Assembly (NCBI GenBank): GCA_021788365.1
Contig: JAJYKS010000005.1
Coordinates: 14,754-78,753 of the forward strand
Reading direction: 5' to 3'
Length of the DNA stretch: 64,000 bases
Source: a bacterium
Lineage (GTDB): Bacteria; Patescibacteriota; Microgenomatia; UBA1400; UBA12108
Shown: one piece after another, positions 3,756 to 58,652 of the stretch
Numbering within the stretch: position 1 is the first letter of the stretch
How the letters are laid out: the number at the start of each line of letters is the position of its first letter
Translations under genes and position numbers: made by a program
The notes under the pieces: model-generated
Database searches by the model: none
Told to the model about the DNA's origin: nothing
What the model saw: only the letters and a program-made list of their open reading frames with translations

Positions 3756-3813
3756 TGCAATGCAAGTTATAGGGTTCTAGGAGGAATAAATGAGGGCGAA
3801 AATGGCTATTTAG

Positions 3814-3884
3814 CAGGGGTGGAAGGAATCGAACCTTCGTTACTTCTTTTGGAGAGAAGAGTCCTACCTCTGAACGACACCCCT
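3814..3884 (-). tRNA. trnW: tRNA-Trp (anticodon CCA)
   Basis: Minus-strand sequence AGGGGTGTCGTTCAGAGGTAGGACTCTTCTCTCCAAAAGAAGTAACGAAGGTTCGATTCCTTCCACCCCTG folds as a cloverleaf. Acceptor AGGGGTG/CACCCCT, D-stem GTTC/GGAC with a GG-containing loop, anticodon stem CTTCT/AGAAG with loop CTCCAAA (U33, CCA, A37), T-arm GAAGG-TTCGATT-CCTTC. No encoded CCA. Confidence 0.85.
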
Positions 3885-4616
3885 AAATTGTTCTCCGAAT
3901 GCATTATATATGGCTGTTAATTCTCTGGCAATTTTAACGTCGTAGTATCGAATGGTGATGCATCCCTTGTAATCATGCCGTTTTCTAATCGCTGTGTGCG
4001 GTTTGCAGTAGGGCTTAATGAACTGCACGCGGGGGATTTTGGTTGTCTTTGACCAAAATTCAATGACTTCGTTTGGATTGTGATATTCGTGTAGATGGAC
4101 GGATACGTGGAACTTGCTCTCATCCAGCGTGTAGGACGTGCGTAGTAGTCCAATAAACGTCTTTATCATCCCTGGATCGGAGTTGGTAAACGCGATGTGG
4201 TTGATTTTTTTGGATCCCTCTGCCCAAAATAACATGGAACAGATAATTTTGATAACATTTTGATTTCCCACCTGTTGATCCTGAACTATTAGTTTCGCAA
4301 TGTCGTGATAGTATTTCTTGATGGAAGTCCTCTTTTCCTGCCATCTCTGCGACATCTTGTATCGGTTCACTTCCTTATGTTTTTGCATTCGGACCCTGCC
4401 CGTTTTGGAAATAGGAACATTCCGAAGCCAAACAGAGGAGGAACTTTGAGAAATATTTAGTTTTCGAGCGATTTCTTTAATGGAAAATCCAGACTTACGT
4501 AACTTTAATGCTCGAGTTTTTATCGAAATACCATAAGACATTATGAGACCATAATATATGGTTCGATTAGTGGAATCAAACGGAGGCGTTGCCAACATAG
4601 CGTTGCGAACATGCAT
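3864..4616 (-). CDS. Hypothetical basic protein with N-terminal HTH (sigma-70 region-4/resolvase-like); possible LAGLIDADG-like homing endonuclease
   Basis: 250-aa ORF in a visibly AT-rich islet (~40% GC against ~50% flanks). HTH-like segment SIKEIARKLNISQSSVSVWLRNV. A single LAGLIDADG-like motif (MLFWAEGSKK) is a weak match. Its last 21 nt overlap the 5' end of tRNA-Trp on the same strand. Confidence 0.45.
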   Translation of the reverse strand: MHVRNAMLATPPFDSTNRTIYYGLIMSYGISIKTRALKLRKSGFSIKEIARKLNISQSSSSVWLRNVPISKTGRVRMQKHKEVNRYKMSQRWQEKRTSIKKYYHDIAKLIVQDQQVGNQNVIKIICSMLFWAEGSKKINHIAFTNSDPGMIKTFIGLLRTSYTLDESKFHVSVHLHEYHNPNEVIEFWSKTTKIPRVQFIKPYCKPHTAIRKRHDYKGCITIRYYDVKIARELTAIYNAFGEQFRGVVQR

Positions 4617-4987
4617 GGCGTGGGCGTAGTATGTGGATATGGTAGCGGCCGGAGATCGTATAGTTGTTGGTCAAGGCGGAGATAGCCTGGTTTGCGATAG
4701 AGACGCGATAGTACGCGAGCCTTCGTTCACCGACTACAAGGTATTAACTTTACTAATACCGAACCTTATTTTGTTTACAGGTCTATTTGTGGAGACACTC
4801 TCCCAGTCGGAGTTTGCCCTTCTTTGGCTCTTTGCAACTATCACGTACAACGCAATCCACAACGGTACCACGAACCTTCACAATCTGTGTGTGTCGCCTG
4901 GATCGGTACTATTTGAGGTGACGAAACAAAACGTAGATGCACCTGTTTTACCAGAGGAAAGCGCCGTTCGCGAAACAATCATTTTAC

Positions 4988-5599
4988 CTACAGTAGAAGC
5001 TTGAGGATTCCGCTAATTATCGGAGAAATGAGTGAGGCTATTGCGGAGCTGCCGCCAAACGGGAAGATTAGAAGTATAAGAATGATGGTTCCGTATTGTT
5101 GCATAATACCGGTAAATTCGACAGCTAGGTTGCCTGGTAGGAGACCAAGAAGGATTTTCTCACCGTCTAGAGGATAAACGGGGACGAAGTTGAAGACGGC
5201 GAGCATCACGTTCAGGGCAAGGATGGGGGTTGCGATGGCAAGGAGTAGAGGGTTTGGCACCAGGCGTACGAGCCCAGCCAGCGCTCCCGCTAAAATAAGA
5301 TTGCTTGCCGGCCCGGCAAGCGCTATCAAGGCGCCGTCCCGCTTGGGATTTTGTAGATTGTAGGGGTCGAAGGGTACTGGGCGTCCCCAGCCGAAACCGA
5401 CCAGGAGTAGGGTGAGGGTACCGAGGGGATCGAGATGGGCGAGGGGATTCACCGTGAGCCGTCCCATGGCACGGGCGGTGGGGTCGCCGAGGCGGTCTGC
5501 AACCCAGGCGTGAGCGAATTCATGAATCGATATGGCTACGACCAGTGCGAGGGCGTAGACCACGAAGACGAGGGGGTCGGAAAAAAGAGTAGAGAGCAT
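4988..5599 (-). CDS. Site-2 protease family (M50) zinc metalloprotease, SpoIVFB-like, no PDZ
   Basis: HEFAHA zinc motif in TM helix 1, multi-TM, LDG motif (VYPLDGEKIL). Start moved to ATG at 5599 (MLSTLF...), because the ORF-track N-terminus (to 5719) only translates the intergenic repeat element. Confidence 0.8.
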   Translation of the reverse strand: MLSTLFSDPLVFVVYALALVVAISIHEFAHAWVADRLGDPTARAMGRLTVNPLAHLDPLGTLTLLLVGFGWGRPVPFDPYNLQNPKRDGALIALAGPASNLILAGALAGLVRLVPNPLLLAIATPILALNVMLAVFNFVPVYPLDGEKILLGLLPGNLAVEFTGIMQQYGTIILILLIFPFGGSSAIASLISPIISGILKLLL

Positions 5600-5621
5600 G
5601 TTTCTAGTATAACCCACGGCT

Positions 5622-5723
5622 CGTCGTATTCCCAAGTGAAAAACCGGTCTGTCTGCGACTGGTGTCGCAGCGACCTTGTGCTCGGACCAGTCCTGCGCAA
5701 TATTTTTCTTTGTGAACACGACT
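5622..5723. repeat. Copy 1 of ~100-nt structured intergenic element (candidate ncRNA/cis-RNA)
   Basis: Near-identical to 57202-57303 and homologous to 26949-27078. Contains nested inverted repeats (GGTC..CTGCGAC-tggtg-GTCGCAG..GACC; GGACcaGTCC) enclosed by an outer helix GTCGTATTC/GAACACGAC. Lies 23 nt upstream of the M50 protease start. Confidence 0.75.
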
Positions 5724-5744
5724 TCGCCTCTTCTTTTAGTAGGC

Positions 5745-5766
5745 GGTGCTCATATATCGCAAAAAT
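5745..5766 (+). promoter_or_regulatory. Conserved 22-nt upstream motif GGTGCTCATATATCGCAAAAAT (copy A)
   Basis: Same 22-mer with 0-4 mismatches at 23225-23246 (upstream of mreB) and 58598-58619 (upstream of folD), all upstream of plus-strand genes. Confidence 0.5.
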
Positions 5767-5810
5767 TTATCGCGAACATATTTTCGTATCTAGTCTCTGA
5801 AAATTGAAAA

Positions 5811-5839
5811 TTGACAAATGAAAATTGAATTGGTATACT
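5811..5839 (+). promoter_or_regulatory. Sigma-70-type promoter (TTGACA-17nt-TATACT)
   Basis: Perfect -35 TTGACA (5811-5816), 17-nt spacer, -10 TATACT (5834-5839). The predicted TSS is ~2-3 nt before the ATG at 5849 (near-leaderless). Confidence 0.65.
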
Positions 5840-5848
5840 ATGGGCCAT

Positions 5849-6469
5849 ATGAAAAAACTCTGCGCCGCCTTGGCGGTTCTTTTCGTTAGCATGTTTGTTT
5901 CCACTAGCAAGGTCTCTGCTCACGAGGGTGACATCGCCATGAGTGGGGCAAATGTGTCCTGCACCGCAATATCCCTATGGCAGAGTGGTCAGTATCAGGT
6001 GACCGGCCGATGTGATGGGCTCGTTTATCCATATCAGACACAGTACGACCGCTATATGTTGTGGGCAAAAACTGCCGGAAGTGGTGACATTGTCCCTGTC
6101 GGAGAGATTGCCCGTGGCTATTTCCAAGGTTTTGTTGGCAATGCTTTTACTACGCTTTTCGTAACAGCCGAGACCTCTAGCAATCCACACCGTCCTAGTT
6201 CGTACCAGGTTGCTTCTGGTAGCGTCACACCTTTTACCTTTGAGAAGACAGCCGCTGCTACGCCCGCACCTGCCTCTACCGAAACTACCAATACAAGTAC
6301 GACCATGACCGTGCAGCAAGCGGCTAGTTCTACGAGTACTTCGGGGAGCACCGTAGGCGCAGTTGTGGGCAAGATTGTAACTTCTCTCCTCGTCATTATC
6401 CTCGTTATCGTAGGGGTCGCGATCGGCGCCTCCCTTATCTTCCGCAGCAGGGGTAGCGTTTCCGCCTAA
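5849..6469 (+). CDS. Secreted/membrane-anchored Thr/Ser-rich hypothetical protein
   Basis: N-terminal signal peptide (MKKLCAALAVLFVSMFVSTSKVSA), low-complexity T/S-rich linker, C-terminal TM helix plus basic tail. Start chosen at 5849 downstream of the promoter; the ORF track begins at a TTG at 5825. Confidence 0.6.
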   Translation: MKKLCAALAVLFVSMFVSTSKVSAHEGDIAMSGANVSCTAISLWQSGQYQVTGRCDGLVYPYQTQYDRYMLWAKTAGSGDIVPVGEIARGYFQGFVGNAFTTLFVTAETSSNPHRPSSYQVASGSVTPFTFEKTAAATPAPASTETTNTSTTMTVQQAASSTSTSGSTVGAVVGKIVTSLLVIILVIVGVAIGASLIFRSRGSVSA

Positions 6470-6484
6470 TCTCTGTTAGAATTC

Positions 6485-6700
6485 ATGCCTATGGCATATG
6501 CATGTGATCTTTGTGGTAAACATCGCGACGTGGGGCACAACGTCTCGCACGCCAAAAATCGTACCCGACGTGTTCGTAAACCCAATCTTCATGCTCATCG
6601 CATGAAGCTCGGTGAGTCGACTCTGCGCCTCCGTCTTTGCACCAAGTGCCTGCGCATGGTGAAGGGTAACGTGCGGAAGGTTGGCACTGTCCAACAGTAA
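6485..6700 (+). CDS. rpmB: 50S ribosomal protein L28
   Basis: [34 protein letters not shown]...LRLCTKCLR matches the L28 signature (C-x-x-C...NVSH...R-x-x-P-N-L...C-T-K-C). Confidence 0.85.
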
Positions 6701-6711
6701 GGGGCTTTTAA

Positions 6712-6894
6712 ATGGTTAGTGTCGTTGATCCAGAACATGATACTAGTAGGCCTGACTATATACAGCCAGCTGGTCTTGATCCTCAGTTGCCAAGATCAGA
6801 AATTCTTACCCCACAGATGAAGCGAGCCTTAATACTGGTAGGTGGTATTGCGGCAATACTTCTTGCTGGTGGGCATTTCGTCGGCTTATATTAA
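6712..6894 (+). CDS. Small single-TM membrane protein (hypothetical)
   Basis: 60-aa ORF with a C-terminal TM helix (ALILVGGIAAILLAGGHFVGL), directly upstream of the ATPase. Could supply the membrane anchor that the ATPase lacks. Confidence 0.35.
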   Translation: MVSVVDPEHDTSRPDYIQPAGLDPQLPRSEILTPQMKRALILVGGIAAILLAGGHFVGLY

Positions 6895-6922
6895 CTAGTT
6901 TTTTCCGTTATACTATGGCAGT

Positions 6923-9088
6923 ATGGCTGCCCTGAACTTAACAACACTCCTTGTAACTATTCCCCGCGATACGGAGGTGACGCCGGAGTCGGCCGCTACC
7001 TTCCTCTCGACATTTCCCACCATGCTTACCAAGAGCTGGTTCGACGTGTGGATCAAAGGAGAGCCGCGGCCCACGATCGCACTTGAGGTGGCGGCGACAG
7101 AGCAGCAGATACGATTTCTCGTGACCGTTTCTCCGTGGCTGGTGCAGTTTGTTACGGCCCAAATTAACTCGACTTACCCTCTGGCCATGATCTCACCCAT
7201 CGTTGACCCATTGCCCGCGCTTGCCCCGCACCTCCACGTCGCGGAGTTGCCGCTCTCGCATGCAGGCTTTTATCCCTTGAAGACATGGAGTGACTTTCGC
7301 GACACCGATCCTATGACGGCGTACCTCTCTGTGTTGTCGAAAGCCGAGGCGGGTGAAACCATGTGGGTGCAGTACGCACTTGCTCCGGCAAAGGCTGGCT
7401 GGCAACAGGCAGGCCAGCAGGCAATAGATGCGGGGCGGACAACTGGCTCTCACCAGACCTATATGGCTGGCGGGAAAACGGGATACACTACGCAGCGAGG
7501 GAGCCTCCCCGAGGCGCGGGGGATACAAGAGAAGATCGCCCACGCGGGGTTTGCCGTCACCGTACGTATTGCAGCGAGCCACAAAGCGAGGTTGAAGGAA
7601 CTAGCTGCTGTTTTTGGCGTCTATGGTAGACCGGACGGCAACAGCTTTACCATGCACACGTCGCTCCTCTCACCAAAGGGTTACCAAAAACAACTTGCCG
7701 CGCGTGCCGGGGCTGCTCGCAAAGTGATCAATGTGCCGGAGCTTTCTACCCTGTGGCACTTGCCATCTGACAAAGTAAAGATACCTGGGATCATCTGGGG
7801 TCAGAATGTCTTTTCCGAGCCGCCGGACAATCTACCTACGGCAGAGGGAAAAACCGATGAGGAAAAGGCGAGCATTAACTTTTTTGGCAGAGCCATTTTT
7901 AAGAACCGCGACCTCATTTTTGGGATAAAAGACGTAGACCGGCGGCGACATCTGTGGGCAATAGGTAAAACGGGCACTGGTAAAAGTACCCTCATCGCCA
8001 ACATGGCCATCGACGATCTTAAAAAAGGTCGAGGTGTGGCGATTATTGACCCGCACGGTGATCTATCGGATATTATCCTCAATTATGTGCCTGCCTCACG
8101 TATCAACGATGTCATTTACTTTAATCCGATAGACCATGACCGGCCCGTGCGTCTCAACGTGCTCGAAGTAAAAGACCCGGCGCAGCGGGAACTTGTCGTG
8201 TCTGGTATTGTCGCCATTTTCAACAAGTTATATGGTCACAGTTGGGGGCCGCGACTTGAATATATTCTTCGGAATACGCTTCTGGCTCTGTCAGAGCTAC
8301 CCGGGATGACCTTGGTAGACGTGCCGAGAATACTCACCGACCGGCAGTTTCGTGCCCAGGCAGTCGCGCAGCTAAAAGATCCCATTATCCAGCGATATTT
8401 CACCAATGAATTTGATAAGATGCCGGACAAACTTTTACAGGAATCTATCAGTCCAATCCTGAATAAAGTAGGCCAGTTTGTGTCCTCGCCTATGATCCGC
8501 GCCATTATCGAACGACCGGCCAGCTCTATCGATATGGAAGCCATCATGAACGAGGGAAAGATACTTATAGCCAATTTATCGCAGGGAAAATTGGGAGAGG
8601 ACAACGCGGCTCTCATTGGCGCCATGCTTATCACCAAGTTCCAGCTCGCGGCGATGAATCGGGTCGACCTGCAGGAAGCGTCCCGCCGCGATTTTTATCT
8701 TTATGTAGACGAGTTCCAGAATTTTGCCACGTCTAGCTTTATCAAGATTTTGTCGGAAGCGCGCAAGTACAAACTAAACCTTATGATGGCAAATCAATAT
8801 ATGGCACAGATACCACTCGAGGTGCAGAAAGCCATCCTTGGGAATGCGGGATCAATTGTCAGCTTTACCATAGGGGCAGAGGATGCTCGAATCATTATGA
8901 AAGAGTTTGGCGACGTGTTTACCGACAAGGATCTTGTAAACTTAGAGAATTACCAAATTGCTGTGCGACTCATGGTGGACGCAAAGAGCGGCAGGGCGTT
9001 CCTCGCGCGCACGTTGCCACTACCCTCGTCGTCGAATCAGAATAAAGATAAGGTAATACGCGTAAGTAGGGAGAGGTGGGGGCGCTAG
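6923..9088 (+). CDS. VirD4/TraD/TrwB-like (FtsK-HerA superfamily) P-loop ATPase, T4SS coupling-protein-like, no N-terminal TM
   Basis: Walker A GKTGTGKST followed by IIDPHGD, Walker B YLYVDEFQNF, C-terminal ARKYKLNLMMANQ typical of the TraG/TraD/VirD4 family. ~300-aa unrelated soluble N-terminal region. Confidence 0.6.
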   Translation: MAALNLTTLLVTIPRDTEVTPESAATFLSTFPTMLTKSWFDVWIKGEPRPTIALEVAATEQQIRFLVTVSPWLVQFVTAQINSTYPLAMISPIVDPLPALAPHLHVAELPLSHAGFYPLKTWSDFRDTDPMTAYLSVLSKAEAGETMWVQYALAPAKAGWQQAGQQAIDAGRTTGSHQTYMAGGKTGYTTQRGSLPEARGIQEKIAHAGFAVTVRIAASHKARLKELAAVFGVYGRPDGNSFTMHTSLLSPKGYQKQLAARAGAARKVINVPELSTLWHLPSDKVKIPGIIWGQNVFSEPPDNLPTAEGKTDEEKASINFFGRAIFKNRDLIFGIKDVDRRRHLWAIGKTGTGKSTLIANMAIDDLKKGRGVAIIDPHGDLSDIILNYVPASRINDVIYFNPIDHDRPVRLNVLEVKDPAQRELVVSGIVAIFNKLYGHSWGPRLEYILRNTLLALSELPGMTLVDVPRILTDRQFRAQAVAQLKDPIIQRYFTNEFDKMPDKLLQESISPILNKVGQFVSSPMIRAIIERPASSIDMEAIMNEGKILIANLSQGKLGEDNAALIGAMLITKFQLAAMNRVDLQEASRRDFYLYVDEFQNFATSSFIKILSEARKYKLNLMMANQYMAQIPLEVQKAILGNAGSIVSFTIGAEDARIIMKEFGDVFTDKDLVNLENYQIAVRLMVDAKSGRAFLARTLPLPSSSNQNKDKVIRVSRERWGR

Positions 9089-9318
9089 GCCAGCGTCGCG
9101 GTTGGCGGATGCGTTGTGTGATGCTCTAGGTGGTTTACGCGCTGATTGAGGTTGCCTTGGTTTTTGGTAACAACTTCGAGTAGCTTATCGAGTTTTGCGT
9201 TAATTTTTGTATCCATTGTTTTCAGGTCGCTACGAATGCCAACGACATCCTCTTGGAGCTGACTCACCTTGGTGTTTAGAATATCTGTATTGGAAACGAT
9301 CTTCTTTTTTGCCGGCAT
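9085..9318 (-). CDS. Small coiled-coil hypothetical protein
   Basis: 77-aa ORF, heptad-like hydrophilic sequence, co-directional with fmt. No recognisable domain. Confidence 0.3.
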   Translation of the reverse strand: MPAKKKIVSNTDILNTKVSQLQEDVVGIRSDLKTMDTKINAKLDKLLEVVTKNQGNLNQRVNHLEHHTTHPPTATLA

Positions 9319-9326
9319 AGCTGCAG

Positions 9327-10298
9327 TTAATCATTTAGATAATACTTTGTAAAGTCACCCCAAGTGATGGGTTTGGGTTTACCAGCGATAAGGATCTCGG
9401 GAGTTGCATACCTGGTATGTGATCTGGTGAGGACGAGGGTGAGGCGAAGGTTGCCTTTTTTGGTCGGGCAAATGGTCCAGACACCCGGCCACGGGGTTAG
9501 TGCCCGGCAGAGCCGGGCAATTTCCAATGACCAATTTTCAATTTTCAAGTGTTGTGTTTTTATTTTTGCTAATCGCAATTTGAGGAGCAGGTTGGTGGTT
9601 TCATCAGGGGCAATGGGTTGATTCGCAAGGAGTTTTTGGACAACGGGCCATTCAACATAACCGGAGTCGCGGGTAAAGCGTTTTGCATAGACTAGGACCT
9701 CTTTTTCCTGGTGTTGTGACTGCGCGCTGGGAACGGGTTTACCGCTAATGTAGTCTGCTACGAGCCCTGCACCTCGAGCAAAAAGCTCGGTGAGGAGGTC
9801 TGGAGCTCCTATTCCTGGTGGGGTGGGTATCTTTTCTTGCGCGACGACTTTACCGGTATCCACGCCTTCGTCGATCGTGAAAATGCTGACGCCAGTTGTT
9901 GTGTCGCCTAACGCAAGCGCATAGGGAACAGGTGCTACGCCGCGGTATTGGGGGAGGAGTGAGGGGTGAATGTTGAGAATACTTTTTAGGAATGTTTTGA
10001 TTAGCGGGGAGGGAAGAATGTGACCAAAAGAGGCGACCAAACCATACTCGTAATGATATGATTTGAGCATATCAATAAAATTGCTCATTTCTTCACTTTT
10101 TTCTGGATAATATATTACTTTTATATTTTGCGTGATGGCTAGTTTTTCAACGGGGTTGGGCTCTCGCTTTTGCTCGCGACCTTTGGGTTTCCCTCGGTCG
10201 GTCACCACAGCTAAAATCGCGATGTTTTGATCATCGATTATCCGCTGCAGCACTATCGCAGAATACTGATCGACGCCAAAAAAGATAAGAGAATGCAT
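9327..10298 (-). CDS. fmt: Methionyl-tRNA formyltransferase
   Basis: N-terminal formyltransferase core with NIHPSLLPQYRGVAPV (SLLP..RG motif), ~320 aa with a C-terminal Fmt-type domain. Contains an in-frame (AATTTTC)n stretch at 9533-9550. Confidence 0.85.
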   Translation of the reverse strand: MHSLIFFGVDQYSAIVLQRIIDDQNIAILAVVTDRGKPKGREQKREPNPVEKLAITQNIKVIYYPEKSEEMSNFIDMLKSYHYEYGLVASFGHILPSPLIKTFLKSILNIHPSLLPQYRGVAPVPYALALGDTTTGVSIFTIDEGVDTGKVVAQEKIPTPPGIGAPDLLTELFARGAGLVADYISGKPVPSAQSQHQEKEVLVYAKRFTRDSGYVEWPVVQKLLANQPIAPDETTNLLLKLRLAKIKTQHLKIENWSLEIARLCRALTPWPGVWTICPTKKGNLRLTLVLTRSHTRYATPEILIAGKPKPITWGDFTKYYLND

Positions 10299-10322
10299 AC
10301 TGTGATTATACTAGCCCGAGGA

Positions 10323-10517
10323 TTATTTACCCAATGTTTTCCAGTTCAAGTAAATAGGGGTGAGCGGGGTGCCGTCCTCGTTGACGATCAGCGTGCGACC
10401 GTCCGCGGTTTCGATCTCTTCTAACCCATATAGTTTGAGGAGCTCTGATAGCGTCAGCTCACTTTCGTCGCGACTATCTCCAGTTGCTTCATGATCGGTT
10501 GGGAGAGTTTCGAACAT
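10323..10517 (-). CDS. Small acidic hypothetical protein
   Basis: 64-aa ORF, co-directional with its neighbours. No domain recognised. Confidence 0.3.
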   Translation of the reverse strand: MFETLPTDHEATGDSRDESELTLSELLKLYGLEEIETADGRTLIVNEDGTPLTPIYLNWKTLGK

Positions 10518-10535
10518 ATTACTTGTATTTATATC

Positions 10536-11306
10536 TTATGTAGGATTATCGTGCATGATAGCGGAGTAGAAGAAGACTATTGGGTCTTTTTCTGCCTCTG
10601 GCCTTTGTATGACAAGTCCAAATTTAATTTCATCAAACTCTCGTAGTGAGGTTGCAACAAAATCTTCGTTTGCTGTGAAAACTACTGTTGTATCTGGGGG
10701 ATATGGAGGATGACGATAGGCGGCGATGGGATTTGGACCCTCTGTTTTCACTTGCGCAAGATTGCTATTGAATACCTCCTCATCTGCGACAATGTACACC
10801 TTATTGTTGCTTAGGTCTGTGGCTTGTGCTGGTATAACGCTAAGTAAATGACCGTTGTCATGTTCGTTGGCGATGGCAACACACACGCCTTCTGCGTCGT
10901 CGCGAAGTGACTCGATAACTTCGGTCATGGAATGGACAACCTTTGTTTCTCGACCGGCCATGCTGCTTATACTGCTAATAACAGCAAGCGCTTCGTTTGG
11001 ATTAACTGCCGATGTGTTCCAATCTGGGGGAAGGAAGTCTGGGCCGACAACAAGACTTGCGGCTAAGCCGACACACCCACCGACGACATCGTCCGTCGTA
11101 CTAACTTGTTCAACGTCTGAGGTATATCCTCGGAGATAGTTGTATAACGACGAGGAATTTTGATCGTTGCTTGGTCTACAAAGGTCGGGAATTATGTCTT
11201 TGATATGTTGGCCTTGTGCAAGTCCGAGAGTTGCGGCATCTTTTAGGTGTTGGGCGGCATGATGCGATGCAAAATGGTTTTTTTGATCGCTTTTAGCTTC
11301 TAACAT
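10536..11306 (-). CDS. Hypothetical protein (256 aa)
   Basis: Long clean ORF inside the minus-strand hypothetical block. No motif recognised. Confidence 0.5.
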   Translation of the reverse strand: MLEAKSDQKNHFASHHAAQHLKDAATLGLAQGQHIKDIIPDLCRPSNDQNSSSLYNYLRGYTSDVEQVSTTDDVVGGCVGLAASLVVGPDFLPPDWNTSAVNPNEALAVISSISSMAGRETKVVHSMTEVIESLRDDAEGVCVAIANEHDNGHLLSVIPAQATDLSNNKVYIVADEEVFNSNLAQVKTEGPNPIAAYRHPPYPPDTTVVFTANEDFVATSLREFDEIKFGLVIQRPEAEKDPIVFFYSAIMHDNPT

Positions 11307-11316
11307 AAATGCGACA

Positions 11317-11685
11317 TTATGTAGCTGGAATTAGATTTATTAGACCGATGATATCGTCATCTTCGAGCACTTGGAATTCGTTGCTTTTTCTGCCGTCTGG
11401 TCCAATATCTTCGGAAATGCCACTGGCCGCTATCCCGGCTGCGGCAAGGACTGCAAGGATATCTGTATCTCTGGACTCTGTGGTGAGGCGTATCGACACT
11501 AATTCACAGGAGCTCGCTGCGGCGTTGGGCACGTCGTATACTGCTGCAACGGCTTTGTGTGCAGCCTCCATGTCTACTGGTGGGAACCCTAGTGGGGCAG
11601 GAAGGAGGGGTGTCTCTCCAGGCGGGATGGGATCTGATAGTACAAATTCGCGACTTAGATGATAGTTCATAAGTCTATTATACAT
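11317..11685 (-). CDS. Hypothetical protein (122 aa)
   Basis: Chosen over the fully overlapping plus-strand ORF 11309-11662, whose translation is S/R-rich and low-complexity. Confidence 0.35.
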   Translation of the reverse strand: MYNRLMNYHLSREFVLSDPIPPGETPLLPAPLGFPPVDMEAAHKAVAAVYDVPNAAASSCELVSIRLTTESRDTDILAVLAAAGIAASGISEDIGPDGRKSNEFQVLEDDDIIGLINLIPAT

Positions 11686-11778
11686 CCTATAGCAAGTTTC
11701 TATGGATAATCGGTGATACAGTTTATATGAGATTGTCTATCTTGAACGAATGTTGGGTTTGGGCTTTTAATATTTTTC

Positions 11779-12288
11779 ATGGGGGTGGTGAGAGGCAACG
11801 AAATTCTCAAAGGAACTGCCATCTCTGACCCCCTAGAAGGTTTGGCTTTTCATTTGCTTAATGGGCTTTTTGACGGTGTGGTTATTGGCCACGAGACGGA
11901 ACGAGCTGATGGGCCGGGAGGACTGACGATACCCGATCTCACCTTTAGGGAACACGTTGAAGATGGGAATAGAGTATTAATCGAGGTGACAAAATCCTGG
12001 CTTCTGCCAGACAAAGACCCAAAGGAGGATCAGCGTCGCAAACTGCAGAGCTATGTTAAAGAAACCCCCGGGACGGCCGCGCTCGTATTATATCGACAAA
12101 ATTTTGGGACGGACGACGCCCAGCTAGACTCCCTGAAGCTCGTGGATATGCTCGCGATGGGGGAAATAGATATGATGGAGGCGCAGGCACGAGCTAACCA
12201 GATTGCGCTCGAAAATAGCGCTATGACGCCGCAGAGTGGGGACGACCACATCTGGAATGATATGGTGATGGCGCTTCTTGGCGGGTAG
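11779..12288 (+). CDS. Hypothetical protein (169 aa)
   Basis: Only plus-strand gene inside the otherwise minus-strand block. Followed 1 nt later by the convergent 148-aa gene. Confidence 0.45.
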   Translation: MGVVRGNEILKGTAISDPLEGLAFHLLNGLFDGVVIGHETERADGPGGLTIPDLTFREHVEDGNRVLIEVTKSWLLPDKDPKEDQRRKLQSYVKETPGTAALVLYRQNFGTDDAQLDSLKLVDMLAMGEIDMMEAQARANQIALENSAMTPQSGDDHIWNDMVMALLGG

Positions 12289-12735
12289 TTATTTGGTGAG
12301 GATGTCGCCGAGCATGGTGACGATGTTTATGGATTGATCTCCGGCGTTTATTGCTTCGTTTATCGATAAAGTCTCTTGCATATCAAGGGCCTCTCGGTGA
12401 TGTCTTCGACTATTTTCAGCTACTTCTTCTGGAGATGGGAAGGGTATGCCAAGTACGGCAAATTCGGCACGAGCGATTGGCTCGATGATTGCGTTTACAA
12501 TAAGGTCTAATCCTGGGTGATTTTCTATTGCTCTTGTGATCTGATCCATTACGAGGAGTGGTGGGTAGATGATTTTAGCTTCGGTAAGACCATGGCCGGT
12601 TAGCTCGGGCACAACAACGTGGTCGTGTTCCAGCGCTCTTCCGGTGTACCTAGCCCTAACAAAATCGCTCTCTGCTGCCTGTGCAGAAAGGCTTTGAGCT
12701 AGTGTCGTGGCTTTTTCATGAACGGCGGTATTCAT
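12289..12735 (-). CDS. Hypothetical protein (148 aa)
   Basis: Clean ORF, 9 nt downstream of the 557-aa gene. Confidence 0.45.
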   Translation of the reverse strand: MNTAVHEKATTLAQSLSAQAAESDFVRARYTGRALEHDHVVVPELTGHGLTEAKIIYPPLLVMDQITRAIENHPGLDLIVNAIIEPIARAEFAVLGIPFPSPEEVAENSRRHHREALDMQETLSINEAINAGDQSINIVTMLGDILTK

Positions 12736-12744
12736 AGTACCTGA

Positions 12745-14418: not shown

Positions 14419-14436
14419 ATATATTCTTTCGAGAAA

Positions 14437-15127: not shown

Positions 15128-15326
15128 ATATTCCTTATTTTTATTATGTACGTAATGTGTATTTATTTTACCTTATAGGTCAAGATATGAGAAAGTGACC
15201 CAAAAACGCGCTACGTGTTCAGCCAAAATGGCTGAATTTTGCACGTAGCGCGTGTGGGGGTAAACGAACATGTTCCATGGCCGCCTTGAAGGGCAGGTTT
15301 GGTCGTGTGGGCGGCCATGGTTTTCA

Positions 15327-15995: not shown

Positions 15996-16145
15996 ATTTG
16001 CCTCCGTTTGAATTCGCGATTACCATTCGGCGTTGCCGTTTCTGGTTCTCCCTAGGCTCGCGTCTGCCTATACTGCAGGGCCGTCCTTGCTTGGTTGTGT
16101 GCCAAGCGTTAATCACCTCCTCTCATAGGTGAAGGTTATACATCC

Positions 16146-16439: not shown

Positions 16440-16451
16440 CTATAAAATCCT

Positions 16452-23103: not shown

Positions 23104-23164
23104 GGGTAGAGTATATCAGGATTATTTGTTGGGGATTGCTTGTACTATTTTTTACTAGGATTGC

Positions 23165-23246
23165 GCTCCTTTCAGGAAAAATATGCTTGCATGACAAGCG
23201 CGCTACGCATATTTTTCTTGAATAGGTGCTCGTATACGTAAAAAAT
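23165..23246 (+). promoter_or_regulatory. ~80-nt conserved upstream element (copy B): GCTCCTTTCAGGAAAAAT ...60 nt... GGTGCTCGTATACGTAAAAAAT
   Basis: Both sub-motifs, and the internal CG.ATTTTyCTTG, recur with the same ~59-60-nt spacing at 58539-58619 upstream of folD. Lies 89 nt upstream of the mreB start. Confidence 0.5.
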
Positions 23247-23334
23247 CCCACTCACAATCTCCCTGATATTCTTTGATGTTTTATGATTGGGTAAAATGAC
23301 GATAATTACCAGATATGTTATCATGCAAACGCTT

Positions 23335-26895: not shown

Positions 26896-26948
26896 ACTGC
26901 GAGATTATACCGCTGGTGTACGAGTTTCGGCAATATTATCTACTTATC

Positions 26949-27078
26949 ACGGTTTACCAAATTCCCAAGTGAAAAACCGGTCTGTCTGCGCCTGCTGGCG
27001 CAGCGACCTTATGCTCGCCCAGCCGTTCGCGAGCAGCTGGGCTGCGCAATATTTTTATTGTGAATATTGGTAAACCGT
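26949..27078. repeat. Copy 2 of structured intergenic element (with extra internal helix and perfect 12-bp outer stem)
   Basis: Shares TTCCCAAGTGAAAAACCGGTCTGTCTGCG...GCGCAATATTTTT with copies 1 and 3. Hairpin 1 is CTGCGCC-tgct-GGCGCAG (compensated). Hairpin 2 is replaced by GCCCAGC-cgttcgcgagca-GCTGGGC. Outer stem ACGGTTTACCAA/TTGGTAAACCGT. Lies ~70 nt upstream of efp and overlaps the stop of gene 27078-27653. Confidence 0.75.
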
Positions 27079-34219: not shown

Positions 34220-36163
34220 ATGGATTTAGTCATTGTCGAGTCTCCTACTAAAGCAAAGACGCTGTCGCGGTTTTTGGGTAGCGGCTACAAGGTAGAGGCA
34301 TCTATGGGCCACGTGCGCGACCTGCCGGAAAAGGGCGGGGGGCTGGCTATAGACGTGGAGCACGATTTTGCACCGAACTATGTCGTACTCTCCAAGAAGA
34401 AAGACGTCATCACTAAGCTTAAAAAACTGGCTACCGACGCTAAAACTATCTATCTCGCGACCGACCCGGACCGGGAGGGTGAGGCGATTTCGTACCATAT
34501 CCAGTATCTTTTGGGTAAGCACGATTTCCGACGAGTGACGTTCCACGAAATTACGAAGAGTGCCATCGAAGAGTCACTGAAGCATCCGGGTCAGGTTGAT
34601 ATGCAGCTTGTGGACGCACAGACGGCGCGGCGAGTCCTCGACCGACTGGTTGGCTATACGCTCTCACCGGTTTTGTGGAAAAAAATACGGCGTGGGCTCT
34701 CGGCTGGCAGAGTGCAGAGTGTTGCAGTACGTTTAATCGTCGAGCGAGAAAAAGAAATAAAAGCGTTCGTACCGGAAGAGTACTGGGAAATATATGTTGA
34801 TTTGCAGAGTAAATCTCAAGATCTGCGGGTGGAACTCGTAAAGATTGACGGAAAGACTGCAAATGTAACGAACGGAGTGGACGCAGAGAGAATAGTCGGT
34901 AATCTCTTACGGGCAACCTACACCGTATCCGACGTTACGAAGGAAGAGCAAAAAAGCTCGCCGTACCCGCCGTTTACCACCTCGCTCCTGCAGCGGTCAG
35001 CCTCTAATATGTTTGGATGGAGCGCCAAGCAGACCATGAGCCTCGCCCAGTCCCTGTACGAGCATGGCTATATTACCTATCATCGTACCGACTCATACAA
35101 CCTCGCCGCTGAGGCAATTGCTGCAGGACGCGCGTATATTGCGAAGGCATATGGCGACATGTATGTACCTCCCGCTCCCCGCTACTACAAGACAAATGCA
35201 AAGAGTGCCCAAGAAGCGCACGAGGCGATCCGGCCTACTGATCCGGCACGCGCAGGTGGTGACTTGACTGGTGAAAAGATTACACCAAAACATGTGAAGT
35301 TGTACGAGCTTATTCGCAGTAGATTCCTGCAGTGTCAGATGTCTGACGCGCGGTTTGATAAGACGACCGTACTTGTTTCTGCCGACAAATATATATTGAA
35401 AGCGGACGGGAAGCGTATCATCTTCGATGGCTGGCTCAAACTCGGCAAGCCAGCAGAGGAAACATTTTTGCCGGAGCTATCAGCGGGAGAAACACTTTCT
35501 TTGATTAAAGTGGACCCGCAACAGAAGTTTACCCAGCCGCCAGCGAGGTATAGTGAAGCGGGACTTATCAAAGAGCTCGAGAAGCGGGGAATTGGTCGGC
35601 CCAGTACCTATGCGACCATCATTTCGACGATCCAGGACAGAGGATACGTGGTGAAGGAAGAGAAGCGCTTGCATCCCACGGCAATCGGGGACGCTGTGAC
35701 CGAGTTCCTTGTTGCCAACTTTCCCAAAGAGCTCGCCTATGAGTTTACCGCAGAAATGGAAAATGATCTCGACGAGATCGCAGAGGGCAAGCGGCAATGG
35801 GTGCCCACGGTCAGAGAATTCTGGAAACCGTTTAGTGAAAAAGTGAAGACGGTGGAGGAGACAGGGGCACGGGTGAAGGTGGCCGTTGAGTCGACGGGGG
35901 AGAAGTGTCCGGATTGTGGCGAGGGAGAGGTGGTTATACGTACCGGACGATTCGGTAAGTTCTACTCCTGCTCTACGTATCCCGAGTGTAAGTATACGAA
36001 GCAGTACAAGGAATATGCAGAGGGCTACACCTGTCCCGATTGTGGGGGCAAGGTAGTCATAAAGAAAAGCAAACGGGGCAAGTTTTATGGGTGCGAGAAC
36101 TATCCGAAGTGTAAGTGGGCGGCATGGAAACTACCGAAAAAAGAAACCCAAACGGGCGCATAG
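34220..36163 (+). CDS. topA: DNA topoisomerase I
   Basis: TOPRIM start MDLVIVESPTKAKTL, active-site region, C-terminal zinc ribbons (CPDCGEGEVVIRTGRFGKFYSCSTYPECKY; CPDCGGKVV...CENYPKC). Confidence 0.95.
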   Translation: MDLVIVESPTKAKTLSRFLGSGYKVEASMGHVRDLPEKGGGLAIDVEHDFAPNYVVLSKKKDVITKLKKLATDAKTIYLATDPDREGEAISYHIQYLLGKHDFRRVTFHEITKSAIEESLKHPGQVDMQLVDAQTARRVLDRLVGYTLSPVLWKKIRRGLSAGRVQSVAVRLIVEREKEIKAFVPEEYWEIYVDLQSKSQDLRVELVKIDGKTANVTNGVDAERIVGNLLRATYTVSDVTKEEQKSSPYPPFTTSLLQRSASNMFGWSAKQTMSLAQSLYEHGYITYHRTDSYNLAAEAIAAGRAYIAKAYGDMYVPPAPRYYKTNAKSAQEAHEAIRPTDPARAGGDLTGEKITPKHVKLYELIRSRFLQCQMSDARFDKTTVLVSADKYILKADGKRIIFDGWLKLGKPAEETFLPELSAGETLSLIKVDPQQKFTQPPARYSEAGLIKELEKRGIGRPSTYATIISTIQDRGYVVKEEKRLHPTAIGDAVTEFLVANFPKELAYEFTAEMENDLDEIAEGKRQWVPTVREFWKPFSEKVKTVEETGARVKVAVESTGEKCPDCGEGEVVIRTGRFGKFYSCSTYPECKYTKQYKEYAEGYTCPDCGGKVVIKKSKRGKFYGCENYPKCKWAAWKLPKKETQTGA

Positions 36164-36357
36164 ATATTTTGGACTCTTTTTACATTTTTCTTTCATGTTC
36201 GACGCGTTCGACCGCTTTGCTCGCTCGCTAACGTCTCACTTGAGCGAAAAATGTATATCGTCAAAATCTCCATGCGCCCGCATAATGCGATTCGTGTATT
36301 TGCTGTTCTAGTTTGCAGTATTCACAGGATAGTGAATTTTAGGTAGGATGGAGGGCG

Positions 36358-40231: not shown

Positions 40232-40996
40232 TTTACAAGGATGATTCCTGTACCCTTTAAGGTGGCTACTCTAAGACTAAGTATTTATTGCCGGACTTTA
40301 GATCGAGCGGCTCCTCGACAAAATGTTGGTACGAATTCTTGGGATTCGTTTTCGAAAAGTATGTGAGGATGTTTTCGGGATGTACCCAGGGTTGATGTAT
40401 ATAGCCTAGGTAGTTTTTGTAGCTTGAATACGGATAACCGGCTAATTTACAGGGATCATCCTTGTAAGATGCCAGTTTTAGGGGGTTGCGGTGGATATAT
40501 TTTGTGAGCCATAGAAATTGGTTTTCTTGCTCTACCATTACTGCCTTGTAGATGCCTTGGAATAAATGCCCGACTCGGGAGTATTTTTTATTGAAATACA
40601 TGGAGTAGCGAGTTCCTAGTGAGCGCATAAAACGGTTCATGGAGTCCTTGTTTACTTGTCGTAACAGAAGATGAAAGTGGTTGGGCATGAGGCAGTAGGA
40701 GACGAGCTCGATAGTTTTTTCGTGGTTATTTGGTTGGCGAGAGGGGGCGTAGATTACTTTTTGGATATCTGACAGGGATGATCCTTGTAAAGTGCGGGCA
40801 AGGCGATGGTCTACTGGTTTTGATGGGGTAAGGTAGAGCTTAAGACACCCTAGGAAAGTAACGTAATCTTTTTCGTCGAGAAAAATATCGCGTTTCTCCA
40901 CCCCGCGGTTGTAGATGTGATAATAGGTGTGATCGACGTAGGTTTTTTGACTGTTCTTTGGTGGCATGATAGTTTACAGGGATCATCCCTGTAAAC
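40232..40996. mobile_element. RAYT (REP-associated tyrosine transposase) unit with flanking REP palindromes
   Basis: The Y1-HuH transposase gene is flanked by TTACAAGGATGATTCCTGTA (40233-40252) and the perfect palindrome TTTACAGGGATCATCCCTGTAAA (40974-40996). Further copies occur inside the gene (40447-40467, 40771-40792) and at 45734-45755. Confidence 0.7.
40266..40967 (-). CDS. IS200/IS605-family Y1 (HuH) transposase, RAYT-type
   Basis: YHIYNRG...YCLMPNHFHLL (HuH)...YIHRNP plus a C-terminal extension with the YPYSSY motif typical of REP-associated tyrosine transposases. 233 aa. Confidence 0.75.
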   Translation of the reverse strand: MPPKNSQKTYVDHTYYHIYNRGVEKRDIFLDEKDYVTFLGCLKLYLTPSKPVDHRLARTLQGSSLSDIQKVIYAPSRQPNNHEKTIELVSYCLMPNHFHLLLRQVNKDSMNRFMRSLGTRYSMYFNKKYSRVGHLFQGIYKAVMVEQENQFLWLTKYIHRNPLKLASYKDDPCKLAGYPYSSYKNYLGYIHQPWVHPENILTYFSKTNPKNSYQHFVEEPLDLKSGNKYLVLE

Positions 40997-41014
40997 TATG
41001 GTATAGTCTTTACG

Positions 41015-57154: not shown

Positions 57155-57201
57155 GATGATTATTATACCTCGTGATATTTTGCTTTCACGCTACAAAAGC
57201 T

Positions 57202-57303
57202 CGCCGTATTCCCAAGTGAAAAACCGATCTGTCTGCGGCTGGTGCCGCAGCGATCTTGTGCTCGGATCAATCCTGCGCAATATTTTTCTTTGTGAACACG
57301 GCT
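57202..57303. repeat. Copy 3 of structured intergenic element
   Basis: ~90% identical to copy 1, with compensated changes in every helix: outer GCCGTATTC/GAACACGGC, GATC/GATC, CTGCGGC/GCCGCAG, GGATcaATCC. Lies ~50 nt upstream of the glyA start and is followed on the plus strand by CTTTTTT. Confidence 0.75.
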
Positions 57304-57387
57304 TCGCTTTTTTAACGCTACCGTTGCGAGACATACCAACATGTTTCAGGAATGTGTATTGGGGCAGGGCGTACAATAACTCATAGT

Positions 57388-58494: not shown

Positions 58495-58538
58495 GTGATT
58501 TGCCTGTTAATATTGCGTATATTTTTGCTAACGACTCC

Positions 58539-58619
58539 GCTCCTTTCAGGGAAAATCTTCCTTACTCGCTTTGCTTGTGCGTCGATTTTCCTTGGGCGGT
58601 GCTCATATATCGCAAAAAT
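58539..58619 (+). promoter_or_regulatory. ~80-nt conserved upstream element (copy C) ending 34 nt before folD
   Basis: GCTCCTTTCAGGGAAAAT ...59 nt... GGTGCTCATATATCGCAAAAAT, co-linear with 23165-23246. TATAAT at 58641-58646 lies 6 nt before the folD ATG (leaderless candidate). Confidence 0.5.
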
Positions 58620-58652
58620 ACATGCAATATTACATGGCGATATAATGGAGGT

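What the first reader, a model, noticed from the sequence alone, without database searches (positions are those of the whole stretch)
5622..5723. Three-copy structured intergenic element with helix-preserving covariation, always directly upstream of a minus-strand gene (M50 protease, efp, glyA)
Copies at 5622-5723, 26949-27078 and 57202-57303 share TTCCCAAGTGAAAAACCG(G/A)TCTGTCTGCG...GCGCAATATTTTT(C/A)TTTGTGAA in the same orientation. Every predicted helix carries compensatory substitutions between copies. Hairpin 1: CTGCGAC/GTCGCAG (copy 1), CTGCGCC/GGCGCAG (copy 2), CTGCGGC/GCCGCAG (copy 3). Its extension: GGTC/GACC versus GATC/GATC. Hairpin 2: GGACcaGTCC versus GGATcaATCC; copy 2 has it replaced by a longer helix. 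Outer closing stem: GTCGTATTC/GAACACGAC versus GCCGTATTC/GAACACGGC, and a perfect 12-bp ACGGTTTACCAA/TTGGTAAACCGT in copy 2. Selection on pairing rather than on sequence points to a functional RNA (or at least a structure-dependent element), not an ordinary repeat. Read in the sense of the downstream genes, hairpin 1 is followed by GGTTTTTCAC (terminator/attenuator-like), 23-70 nt before the start codons of three functionally unrelated genes. It could be an sRNA gene, a cis-regulatory leader, or a structured REP/MITE-like element. I do not recognise it as any riboswitch or RNA family I know.
Basis: seen in the sequence. Interest (0 to 1): 0.8.

Follow-up and report, generated by a model that had tools for sequence, protein, structure and literature searches.

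The report
Structured palindromic intergenic repeat, probably mobile DNA
The three copies are real and keep a Y-shaped hairpin fold through paired substitutions, but they sit upstream of promoters and are missing from close relatives, so they look like a strain-specific palindromic, probably mobile, repeat rather than a gene-regulating RNA leader.

Summary
Three same-orientation copies (5618-5728, 26949-27078, 57198-57308) fold into a long closing stem, an A5/T5 helix and two apical hairpins. Copies 1 and 3 differ at 10 of 111 positions, and these form exactly 5 complementary pairs.

- The three adjacent genes appear leaderless, with a TATAAT-like box 6-8 nt before the ATG, between element and start codon.
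- Two sister strains (92-98% nt identity) lack the element upstream of glyA and efp.
- The efp slot in a sister strain holds a different structured repeat ("family 2").
- There is no Rfam hit and no copy in about 0.86 Mb of related CPR (Microgenomates-like) DNA, GTDB species representatives, JGI metagenomes, phages or plasmids.

Context:
- Family 2 has three copies in the window plus a half copy beside copy 1. It shares the design of a conserved core with a locus-specific outer stem.
- All copies of both families share one chromosomal orientation, whatever the gene direction.
- The window encodes a single-copy RAYT-like HUH tyrosine transposase flanked by a third palindrome family.

Best reading (about 50%): a lineage-specific palindromic repeat of the REP/REPIN/MITE kind, probably mobile through single-stranded DNA. 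A functional RNA is not excluded.

The parts
5618..5728 (.). Copy 1 (family 1, subtype A). It has an outer stem GGC..GTCGTATTC/GAACACGAC..GCC, an A5/T5 helix and two apical hairpins. It lies in a divergent intergenic region, 18 nt from the M50 peptidase ATG (5599).
   Evidence: (126.9 bits)
26949..27078 (.). Copy 2 (family 1, subtype B). It has the same core, a perfect 12-bp outer stem ACGGTTTACCAA/TTGGTAAACCGT and an enlarged hairpin 2. It starts at the stop codon of the upstream 191-aa gene. It is flanked by the direct repeat TATC (26945-26948 and 27079-27082).
   Evidence: (92.6 bits); flanks read directly
57198..57308 (.). Copy 3 (family 1, subtype A). It lies in a divergent intergenic region between glyA (ATG 57154) and a + strand gene (ATG 57388).
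   Evidence: (127.6 bits)
5606..5611 (-). -10 box TATACT of the M50 gene, 6 nt before the ATG. The matching -35 (TTGGGA, 5630-5635) lies inside copy 1.
26904..26909 (-). -10 box TATAAT of efp, 8 nt before the ATG. The -35 TTGCCG (26928-26933) lies outside copy 2.
57162..57167 (-). -10 box TATAAT of glyA, 7 nt before the ATG, between copy 3 and the gene.
23131..23262 (+). Family 2 structured repeat X1, a rod-like hairpin between the Wzy-like gene and mreB. An orthologous copy is present in sister strains.
   Evidence: (125.7 bits)
58508..58632 (+). Family 2 structured repeat X2, upstream of folD. An orthologous copy is present in a sister strain.
   Evidence: (121.4 bits)
36153..36280 (+). X3, a distant family 2-like long hairpin between topA and the ribonucleotide reductase gene.
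   Evidence: z -6.2/-8.6; 28.7 bits, E 7e-5
5742..5766 (+). Half copy of family 2, 25 nt identical to 58595-58619 (the 3' part of X2). It lies 14 nt from copy 1. This suggests copy 1 replaced the other half of a family 2 element.
40266..40967 (-). Single-copy RAYT-like HUH tyrosine (Y1) transposase gene. The motifs HFH and YIHRNP are present. It is a candidate mobilising enzyme; the link to family 1 is inferred only.
   Evidence: PF01797, E 3.8e-11; NF047646, 42.9 bits, below the cutoff of 80
40969..40999 (.). Perfect 15+15 palindrome ATAGTTTACAGGGAT-C-ATCCCTGTAAACTAT directly upstream of the Y1 gene (family 3). Further copies lie at 40232-40256, 40446-40468, 40769-40791 and 45733-45755.

Best explanation
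Family 1 is a young, strain-specific family of small (111-130 bp) dispersed palindromic DNA repeats. It belongs to the same general kind as REP/REPIN elements, IS200/IS605-derived palindromic elements and MITEs.

What matters to the element is a folded single strand: a long closing stem, an A5/T5 helix and two apical hairpins. That would explain why substitutions arrive as complementary pairs. Two routes could produce this. One is selection for a foldable single-stranded transposition substrate. The other is arm-to-arm templated correction during replication.

Copies are gained, lost or swapped in intergenic slots. A second family with the same design occupies the same kind of slot, and in one case the very same slot in a sister strain.

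The most likely mobilising activity is a single-strand-specific HUH tyrosine transposase such as the RAYT-like protein at 40266-40967. This would also explain why all copies point the same way along one replichore.

Shown: the repeat, the fold, the paired substitutions, the strain polymorphism, the position upstream of promoters, the co-orientation and the presence of a Y1 transposase gene.

Inferred: mobility itself, the single-stranded DNA route, and the link to that enzyme.

Any host-level effect would be secondary. Examples are a hairpin that ends or insulates transcription ahead of leaderless genes, or the -35 box donated to the M50 gene.
For: 1. Sharp-edged dispersed repeat with unrelated flanks.
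2. The fold is equally significant as DNA on both strands.
3. About 82 of 111 nt are paired. There are almost no conserved unpaired residues of the kind a ligand- or catalysis-type RNA would need.
4. All 10 differences between copies 1 and 3 form 5 complementary pairs. One pair closes a 2-nt loop, which is unusual for RNA and unproblematic for a DNA hairpin.
5. Presence/absence polymorphism. In strain GCA_021839925.1, flanks are 98% and 92% identical, but 180 bp holding copy 3 are replaced by 90 unrelated bp. About 37 kb of sister-strain DNA holds no family 1 copy.
6. In strain GCA_021842825.1 the efp slot holds a family 2 element at the same place, directly after the same stop codon.
7. A half family 2 element abuts copy 1.
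8. Four independent ENA assemblies break at the same base, which lies inside the family 2 element in a fifth, longer contig. This is typical of repeats.
9. Copy 2 has 12-bp perfect terminal inverted repeats flanked by TATC/TATC. Removing it would restore the same TAA stop.
10. All 3 family 1 copies and all 4 family 2 copies or fragments lie in one orientation in a window with uniformly positive GC skew. Their neighbouring genes run both ways.
11. A RAYT-like Y1 transposase is present with intact HUH and Tyr motifs. It is 100% identical and syntenic in a sister strain.
12. Compensatory changes are described as common in REPINs (PMC3116915). Replication template switching can create and maintain hairpin complementarity without RNA-level selection (PMC8794818).
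13. The family is absent elsewhere, as is usual for lineage-specific repeats.
Against: - No transposition event, excision footprint or clean empty site was seen. At the glyA site the whole segment is replaced, not cleanly inserted.
- Subtype A copies have no target-site duplication and no shared flanking tetranucleotide.
- The termini are the least conserved part: the core is about 93% identical between subtypes and the outer stems are unrelated. This is the opposite of a classical MITE.
- The palindromes that flank the Y1 gene (family 3) are not the hairpins of family 1.
- The two apical hairpins are not inverted copies of each other, so it is not a REPIN doublet.
- G-U versus A-C asymmetry mildly favours the minus strand (3 versus 6 broken cells; about 3 kcal/mol). 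The strand exposed at the fork should be the plus strand.
- Only three copies were available. The co-orientation p-value is only about 0.03.
Confidence: 0.5

Rival explanations
1. A multi-copy structured non-coding RNA, either a small RNA or a 3'UTR-derived RNA, read from the minus strand. Its Y-shaped fold is maintained by selection on the RNA.
For: - Five of 38 modelled pairs covary, and all changes between copies 1 and 3 are transition pairs of the A-U to G-C type.
- The minus strand has three G-U positions that would be A-C on the plus strand, and folds about 3 kcal/mol better.
- Unpaired positions are invariant between copies 1 and 3.
- Copy 2 follows a minus-strand gene directly, so it should be transcribed as its 3' end.
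- The pattern of a conserved core with a freely varying closing stem is common in RNA families.
Against: - No sigma-70-like promoter is predicted upstream of copies 1 and 3 on either strand.
- Nearly every base is paired, which leaves little for recognition.
- The element is absent from close relatives and from 0.86 Mb of related genomes.
- Orientation follows the chromosome, not the neighbouring genes. Family 2 shows this clearly.
- There is no Rfam match.
- The same covariation pattern is known from non-coding mobile DNA.
Confidence: 0.2
2. A hairpin cassette that works as a bidirectional transcription terminator or insulator, or as a 3'-end stabiliser. It would protect leaderless genes from read-through, which would bury their 5'-terminal AUG.
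For: - Hairpin 1 is followed by GGTTTTTCAC on the minus strand. Hairpin 2 is followed by TATTTTTCTTT on the plus strand. Copy 2 gives a plus-strand terminator-like hit.
- Copy 2 and family 2 copies X2, X3 and X4 sit directly after stop codons and ahead of promoters.
- Leaderless starts are common in this window.
- Two different families fill the same slot in two strains, as if the slot needs a hairpin.
Against: - Copies 1 and 3, and X1, lie between divergent genes, where nothing needs terminating.
- The U tracts are only 5 nt long and are themselves paired in the full fold.
- The simple terminator scan does not call copies 1 and 3.
- The glyA upstream region of a sister strain has other hairpins without U tracts.
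- This reading explains a possible use, not the origin, the dispersal or the orientation bias.
Confidence: 0.15
3. A cis-regulatory 5' leader, attenuator or riboswitch of the downstream genes (M50 peptidase, efp, glyA), as first proposed.
For: - The element has the same orientation and lies 18-53 nt from the ATG of a minus-strand gene in all three cases.
- On the minus strand there is a hairpin followed by a short U run.
Against: - -10 boxes lie between the element and the ATG, at 6-8 nt from it, so the transcripts are probably leaderless.
- The element is missing upstream of glyA and efp in sister strains and upstream of glyA in 80 related loci.
- The three genes are functionally unrelated.
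- There is no Rfam hit.
Confidence: 0.03
4. A small cysteine-containing protein gene on the plus strand (VKNRSVCDWCRSDLVLGPVLRNIFLCEH...).
For: One plus-strand frame is open through all three copies, and copies 1 and 3 carry CxxC...CxH.
Against: - There is no ATG start, ribosome-binding site or promoter.
- Copy 2 breaks the CxxC motif and changes frame.
- A search with all frames against 5.8 billion proteins gave no hit.
- Complementary paired substitutions are not explained by coding.
Confidence: 0.02

Closest known systems
REPINs / REP sequences with RAYT (REP-associated tyrosine transposases)
   Same: - Short non-coding intergenic repeats that fold into a long hairpin as single-stranded DNA or RNA.
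- Compensatory changes on the two sides of the hairpin are common (PMC3116915).
- They are lineage-specific.
- They come with a single-copy, vertically inherited Y1 (HUH) transposase. A RAYT-like gene is present in this window and is identical and syntenic in a sister strain.
   Different: - The two halves are not inverted copies of one REP unit; the apical hairpins are unrelated.
- Family 1 does not flank the RAYT-like gene. A different 23-31 nt palindrome does.
- Copy number is low.
- The core is conserved and the outer stem is locus-specific.
- The host is a CPR bacterium.
IS200/IS605-derived palindrome-associated transposable elements (PATEs)
   Same: - No conserved terminal inverted repeats.
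- No target duplication in copies 1 and 3.
- Internal hairpins.
- Orientation tied to the replication direction, as expected for transposition through the single-stranded lagging-strand template.
   Different: - No shared target tetranucleotide is found next to the copies.
- The hairpins do not resemble those next to the Y1 gene.
- The whole element closes into one long stem.
MITEs and structured enterobacterial/neisserial repeats (ERIC, Correia, BOX/RUP)
   Same: - Size of 100-150 bp.
- Intergenic location, strain polymorphism and a strong predicted fold.
- Can donate promoter or terminator signals.
- Copy 2 has 12-bp terminal inverted repeats and a 4-bp direct repeat.
   Different: - The termini differ between subtypes while the interior is conserved.
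- No related DDE transposase or parent insertion sequence is seen.
- Copies 1 and 3 have no target duplication.
Rickettsia palindromic elements (RPE)
   Same: Several palindromic repeat families coexist in a small genome. The companion family 3 palindrome is found in frame inside coding genes: the Y1 gene itself and an EpmA-like gene of a sister strain.
   Different: Family 1 itself is only seen between genes. There is no sequence similarity.

Membership tests
Any Rfam RNA family (riboswitch, ribozyme, sRNA, leader) | Covariance-model match at or near the gathering score | tested here: not met
   The whole window at gathering threshold gives only tRNA-Trp. The copy 1 region at E up to 10 gives only a chance 11.8-bit DUF805b hit outside the element.
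Cis-regulatory 5' leader / attenuator | Lies within the 5'UTR, between the transcription start and the start codon | tested here: not met
   Predicted -10 boxes lie between element and ATG, 6-8 nt from the ATG. This is a sequence inference, not an experimental transcription start.
Cis-regulatory 5' leader / attenuator | Conserved upstream of orthologous genes in relatives | tested here: not met
   Absent upstream of glyA and efp in sister strains. There are 0 hits in 80 glyA loci.
Intrinsic terminator | GC-rich hairpin immediately followed by a U tract, downstream of a gene | tested here: inconclusive
   Hairpin plus 5 U is present on both strands, but only copy 2 is downstream of a gene. The scan calls only copy 2, on the plus strand.
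MITE | Terminal inverted repeats conserved across copies | tested here: not met
   The outer stems of subtypes A and B are unrelated, while the core is about 93% identical.
MITE | Target-site duplication flanking each copy | tested here: inconclusive
   Copy 2 has TATC/TATC. Copies 1 and 3 have none.
MITE | Related autonomous insertion sequence with the same ends | tested here: not met
   There is no DDE transposase in the window, only an HTH-only protein at 3864-4616. The rest of the genome was not available.
REPIN / REP-RAYT system | Two inverted copies of one REP unit separated by a spacer | tested here: not met
   The outer parts pair, but hairpin 1 and the reverse complement of hairpin 2 are no more alike than shuffles (144 and 276 of 1000).
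REPIN / REP-RAYT system | Cognate repeats flank the RAYT gene | tested here: not met
   The flanks of 40266-40967 carry the family 3 palindrome, not family 1.
REPIN / REP-RAYT system | Single-copy RAYT gene with HUH and Tyr motifs in the genome | tested here: met
   PF01797 at E 3.8e-11. NF047646 scores 42.9 bits, below the curated cutoff of 80. HFH and YIHRNP are present. The gene is identical and syntenic in a sister strain.
REPIN / REP-RAYT system | Hairpin fold kept by compensatory changes | tested here: met
   The literature basis is.
IS200/IS605-type PATE | Same tetra- or pentanucleotide target 5' of every copy | tested here: not met
   The 5' flanks are CCAC, CAAA and TATC (family 1) and TGTT, CTGT, AAAC and TGAC (family 2), read.
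IS200/IS605-type PATE | Orientation bias relative to replication | tested here: inconclusive
   7 of 7 copies or fragments are co-oriented in a window of uniform GC skew. The sample is small, about p 0.03.
Integron attC site | Conserved outer R''/R' core sites (RYYYAAC...GTTRRRY), cassette array, integron integrase | tested here: not met
   No such motifs are at the ends. The copies are 21-30 kb apart. No integrase is found in the window.

The most novel reading that the evidence does not exclude
Families 1 and 2 may represent a so far undescribed kind of structured element in CPR bacteria. It would have a sequence-constrained apical core carried on a freely evolving, locus-specific closing stem, and it would compete for the same intergenic slots just upstream of leaderless promoters. 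It could be either a new class of non-coding RNA or a new type of single-stranded-DNA mobile element handled by a RAYT-like enzyme.
Probability: 0.2. Interest if true: 0.65.

Novelty: new variant of a known kind. Interest (0 to 1): 0.45.

Why it matters
CPR bacteria have tiny genomes, and dispersed repeats in them are little described; one literature search found no report. This window shows three palindromic repeat families and a RAYT-like transposase gene in one Microgenomates-like lineage, with turnover between strains that are 92-98% identical.

If the link to the transposase holds, REP/RAYT-like biology would extend to this radiation.

The finding is also a caution. Perfectly helix-preserving substitutions in a handful of repeat copies do not by themselves show a functional RNA. 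Foldable mobile DNA and replication template switching give the same signature.

Tried and rejected
1. Rfam, on the whole window and on the copy 1 region at a permissive threshold: nothing.
2. Exact-pattern scans:
- The 18-mer in GTDB species genomes gave 14 hits in unrelated phyla, none with the second conserved block. About 17 are expected by my own estimate, so these are chance.
- A 20-mer in JGI metagenomes gave 0 hits.
- The same 20-mer in viral contigs gave 0 hits.
3. blastn against phages and plasmids: no match.
4. All open frames of the three copies, joined into one query against 5.8 billion proteins, to catch copies mis-called as genes: no hit. This also weakens the small-protein idea.
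5. Covariance model R1 on 864 kb of related CPR glyA loci and on all sister-strain loci: no copy.
6. Attempts to extend beyond the window or reach the copy 1 site in relatives by exact protein look-ups failed or returned the same strain.
7. Search for 'empty' outer hairpins of either subtype in the window: none. The idea that the core inserted into a pre-existing repeated hairpin is therefore unsupported.
8. REPIN-type inverted doublet: rejected.
9. The enlarged hairpin 2 of copy 2 as a nested copy of another repeat: it is unique in the window.
10. ZTP/THF riboswitch idea for glyA/folD: there are no Rfam hits.
11. The Y1 protein has no sequence match in the PDB.

Full report
**1. The observation**

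- The window holds three copies of a 111-130 nt element at 5618-5728, 26949-27078 and 57198-57308, all in one orientation.
- The shared 18-mer occurs 3 times against 0.1 expected.
- A covariance model built from the copies finds only these three in the window, at 93-128 bits; the next hit scores 12 bits.
- The fold has four parts:
  - a short CAA/UUG helix;
  - a GAAAAA/UUUUUC helix;
  - two apical hairpins at a three-way junction.
- Stability exceeds shuffles as RNA (z -3.2 to -7.4) and as DNA (z -4.3 to -8.9), on both strands.

**2. The covariation**

- Copies 1 and 3 differ at 10 of 111 positions. These are exactly five complementary pairs, all transitions. There are no one-sided changes and no changes at unpaired positions.
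- One hairpin 1 position is A-U, C-G and G-C in the three copies.
- Across the three copies, 96.5% of cells pair. Five pairs have double changes, against 0-1 in slid controls. Only 2-4 of 500 shuffles reach the observed values.
- The signal is real, but it rests on three sequences.
- One of the five 'pairs' closes a 2-nt loop at the tip of hairpin 2. This is rare in RNA and unproblematic in a DNA hairpin.
- Strand-asymmetric positions (G-U versus A-C) mildly favour the minus strand: three against six broken cells, about 3 kcal/mol.

**3. Organism and gene context**

- The best named GlyA relatives are Microgenomates-group CPR bacteria.
- Copies 1 and 3 lie between divergent genes.
- Copy 2 lies between two minus-strand genes and begins at the stop codon of the upstream one.
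- In all three cases a sigma-70-like promoter is predicted whose -10 box sits between the element and the ATG, 6-8 nt from the ATG.
- The same layout occurs at 17 or more of 53 genes in the window, and other genes carry GGAGG-type sites.
- The adjacent genes are therefore most likely leaderless, and the element lies upstream of their promoters, not in a 5'UTR.
- Only in copy 1 does the element supply the -35 box.

**4. Relatives**

Two sister MAGs are available through exact-protein look-ups: GCA_021839925.1 and GCA_021842825.1.

- *The glyA site.* One sister aligns at 98% identity on one side of copy 3 and 92% on the other. The 180 bp between them, which contain copy 3, are replaced by 90 unrelated bp.
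- *The efp site.* Identity runs from efp through its promoter and stops 14 nt before copy 2. In the sister strain a different structured repeat follows and ends at the same stop codon of the upstream gene.
- *Assembly breaks.* Four independent ENA assemblies break at the same base upstream of efp. A fifth, longer contig (L110) shows this point lies inside that other repeat.
- *No family 1 copy* is found in about 37 kb of sister-strain DNA, nor in 864 kb around glyA of 80 related CPR contigs.
- *Pattern scans* of GTDB species genomes, JGI metagenomes and viral contigs, and blastn against phages and plasmids, gave only chance hits or none.
- *Translated search.* All open frames of the three copies found nothing among 5.8 billion proteins.

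The element is strain-specific and is not a conserved regulator.

**5. A second family with the same design**

- The repeat in the sister's efp slot (X4) belongs to a family with members in the window at 23131-23262, 58508-58632 and, more distantly, 36153-36280.
- A 25-nt identical half copy lies at 5742-5766, 14 nt from copy 1.
- These are rod-like hairpins with z about -6. Sixteen of 44 pairs show double changes.
- As in family 1, the core is conserved while each copy has its own outer stem.
- Family 2 is present at orthologous sites in the sister strains and is absent from the more distant relatives.
- All family 1 and family 2 copies and fragments in the window have the same chromosomal orientation. 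Their neighbouring genes run both ways. GC skew is positive throughout.
- X4, between minus-strand genes, has the same chromosomal orientation as X2 and X3, between plus-strand genes.
- Orientation therefore tracks the chromosome strand and not transcription. The chance probability is about 0.03, and the sample is small.

**6. A candidate enzyme**

- The gene at 40266-40967 encodes a 233-aa protein. It matches Pfam Y1_Tnp (E 3.8e-11) and the NCBIfam REP-associated tyrosine transposase model (42.9 bits, below the curated cutoff of 80).
- It carries HFH and YIHRNP motifs.
- It is single-copy in the window, and is identical and syntenic in a sister strain.
- It is flanked by, and contains, a third palindrome, TTTACAGGGATSATCCCTGTAAA. 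A further copy lies at 45733.
- In a sister strain this palindrome sits in frame inside an EpmA-like gene.
- This shows that HUH, single-strand-type palindrome biology exists in this lineage.
- It does not show that the enzyme moves family 1, whose hairpins are different.

**7. Interpretation**

The facts that count most for the best reading are:
- sharp repeat edges;
- an almost fully paired fold;
- equal foldability as DNA;
- strain polymorphism, slot sharing and nesting with another repeat family;
- co-orientation along the chromosome;
- terminal inverted repeats with a 4-bp direct repeat in copy 2;
- a Y1 transposase gene in the window.

Together they fit a young family of palindromic, probably mobile DNA of the REP/REPIN/PATE/MITE kind. 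Helix-preserving substitutions are documented for REPINs (PMC3116915). They can also arise mutationally by template switching between hairpin arms (PMC8794818). They therefore do not single out an RNA function.

The element fails the defining tests of each named family:
- its termini are not conserved (MITE);
- its halves are not inverted REP units, and it does not flank the RAYT gene (REPIN);
- no common target motif is found (PATE).

I therefore file it as a new variant of this general kind, not as a member of any one family.

A functional RNA remains possible (about 0.2). A hairpin with a terminator or insulator role is a plausible secondary use (about 0.15), particularly for copy 2 and the family 2 copies that follow stop codons. 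The leader/attenuator reading and the small-protein reading are unlikely.

**8. Verdict**

This is a real and well-observed feature. Interest is moderate. The broader pattern deserves a genome-wide follow-up: three palindromic repeat families, a RAYT-like gene and slot swapping between near-identical CPR strains.

Noticed in passing
window 23131-23262, 58508-58632, 36153-36280; L110:12772-12896: A second family of 125-132 nt rod-like intergenic repeats, with a conserved core, locus-specific outer stems and 16 of 44 pairs showing double changes. It is present in sister strains too. One copy fills the efp slot that family 1 occupies in the window strain.
   Followed up: yes
window 40266-40967 (-), palindromes at 40232, 40446, 40769, 40969, 45733; L110:11523-11570: A RAYT-like Y1 transposase gene flanked by a 23-31 nt palindrome that also lies in frame inside the gene itself (peptides TLQGSSLS and YKDDPCKL). 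In a sister strain the palindrome lies in frame inside an EpmA-like gene (YKDDPCKLQGSSL). This resembles Rickettsia palindromic elements.
   Followed up: partly
whole window, e.g. 9327-10298, 20239-20790, 21031-23103, 29151-30263, 45810-47795: Many first genes carry a TATAAT-like box 6-8 nt before the ATG and no Shine-Dalgarno site. Internal genes have GGAGG. Leaderless mRNAs seem to be the rule for operon-first genes.
   Followed up: partly
window 5742-5766 and 58595-58619: A 25-nt exact duplicate, GGCGGTGCTCATATATCGCAAAAAT. One copy is next to copy 1 and the other is inside the family 2 element upstream of folD.
   Followed up: partly
window 3813-19061: tRNA-Trp overlaps the end of an HTH-only protein (3864-4616, weak IS3/IS21 N-terminal similarity). 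It is followed by a TraG/VirD4-like ATPase (6923-9088), many proteins with no known family, and an SLT+M23 lytic enzyme (16452-19061). This may be an integrated conjugative or type IV secretion-like island. Copy 1 sits at its edge.
   Followed up: no
window 5794-5830, 9517-9548, 33761-33792: Tandem heptamers GAAAATT / AATTTTC (3-4 units) in promoter-proximal intergenic DNA.
   Followed up: no
window 53-62 kb versus L016; 25-27 kb versus L022/L110: Strain mosaicism. Identity to a sister strain steps from 98% to 92% to 82% across neighbouring genes. A 362-aa gene is replaced by a non-homologous 400-aa gene. The radical SAM (EpmB-like) gene next to efp is absent or displaced in sister strains. 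The break points coincide with the structured repeats.
   Followed up: partly
window 51506-51559, 51283-51331, 43963-44049, 15198-15261, 32736-32776: Further long or perfect intergenic inverted repeats, for example 15-bp perfect arms at 51506/51545 and 13-bp arms at 32736/32764. None was assigned to a family.
   Followed up: no
window 38636-40231: A 531-aa protein combines MtrA-like, thymidylate synthase-like and pterin-binding (DUF4346) domains. This is an unusual fusion, located next to the Y1 transposase gene.
   Followed up: no
L022-L025, L112 (ENA assemblies ERZ272375xx): All five contigs (from four assemblies) end at exactly the same base, 82 nt upstream of efp, inside the family 2 element. 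This is an assembly signature of a multi-copy repeat.
   Followed up: yes
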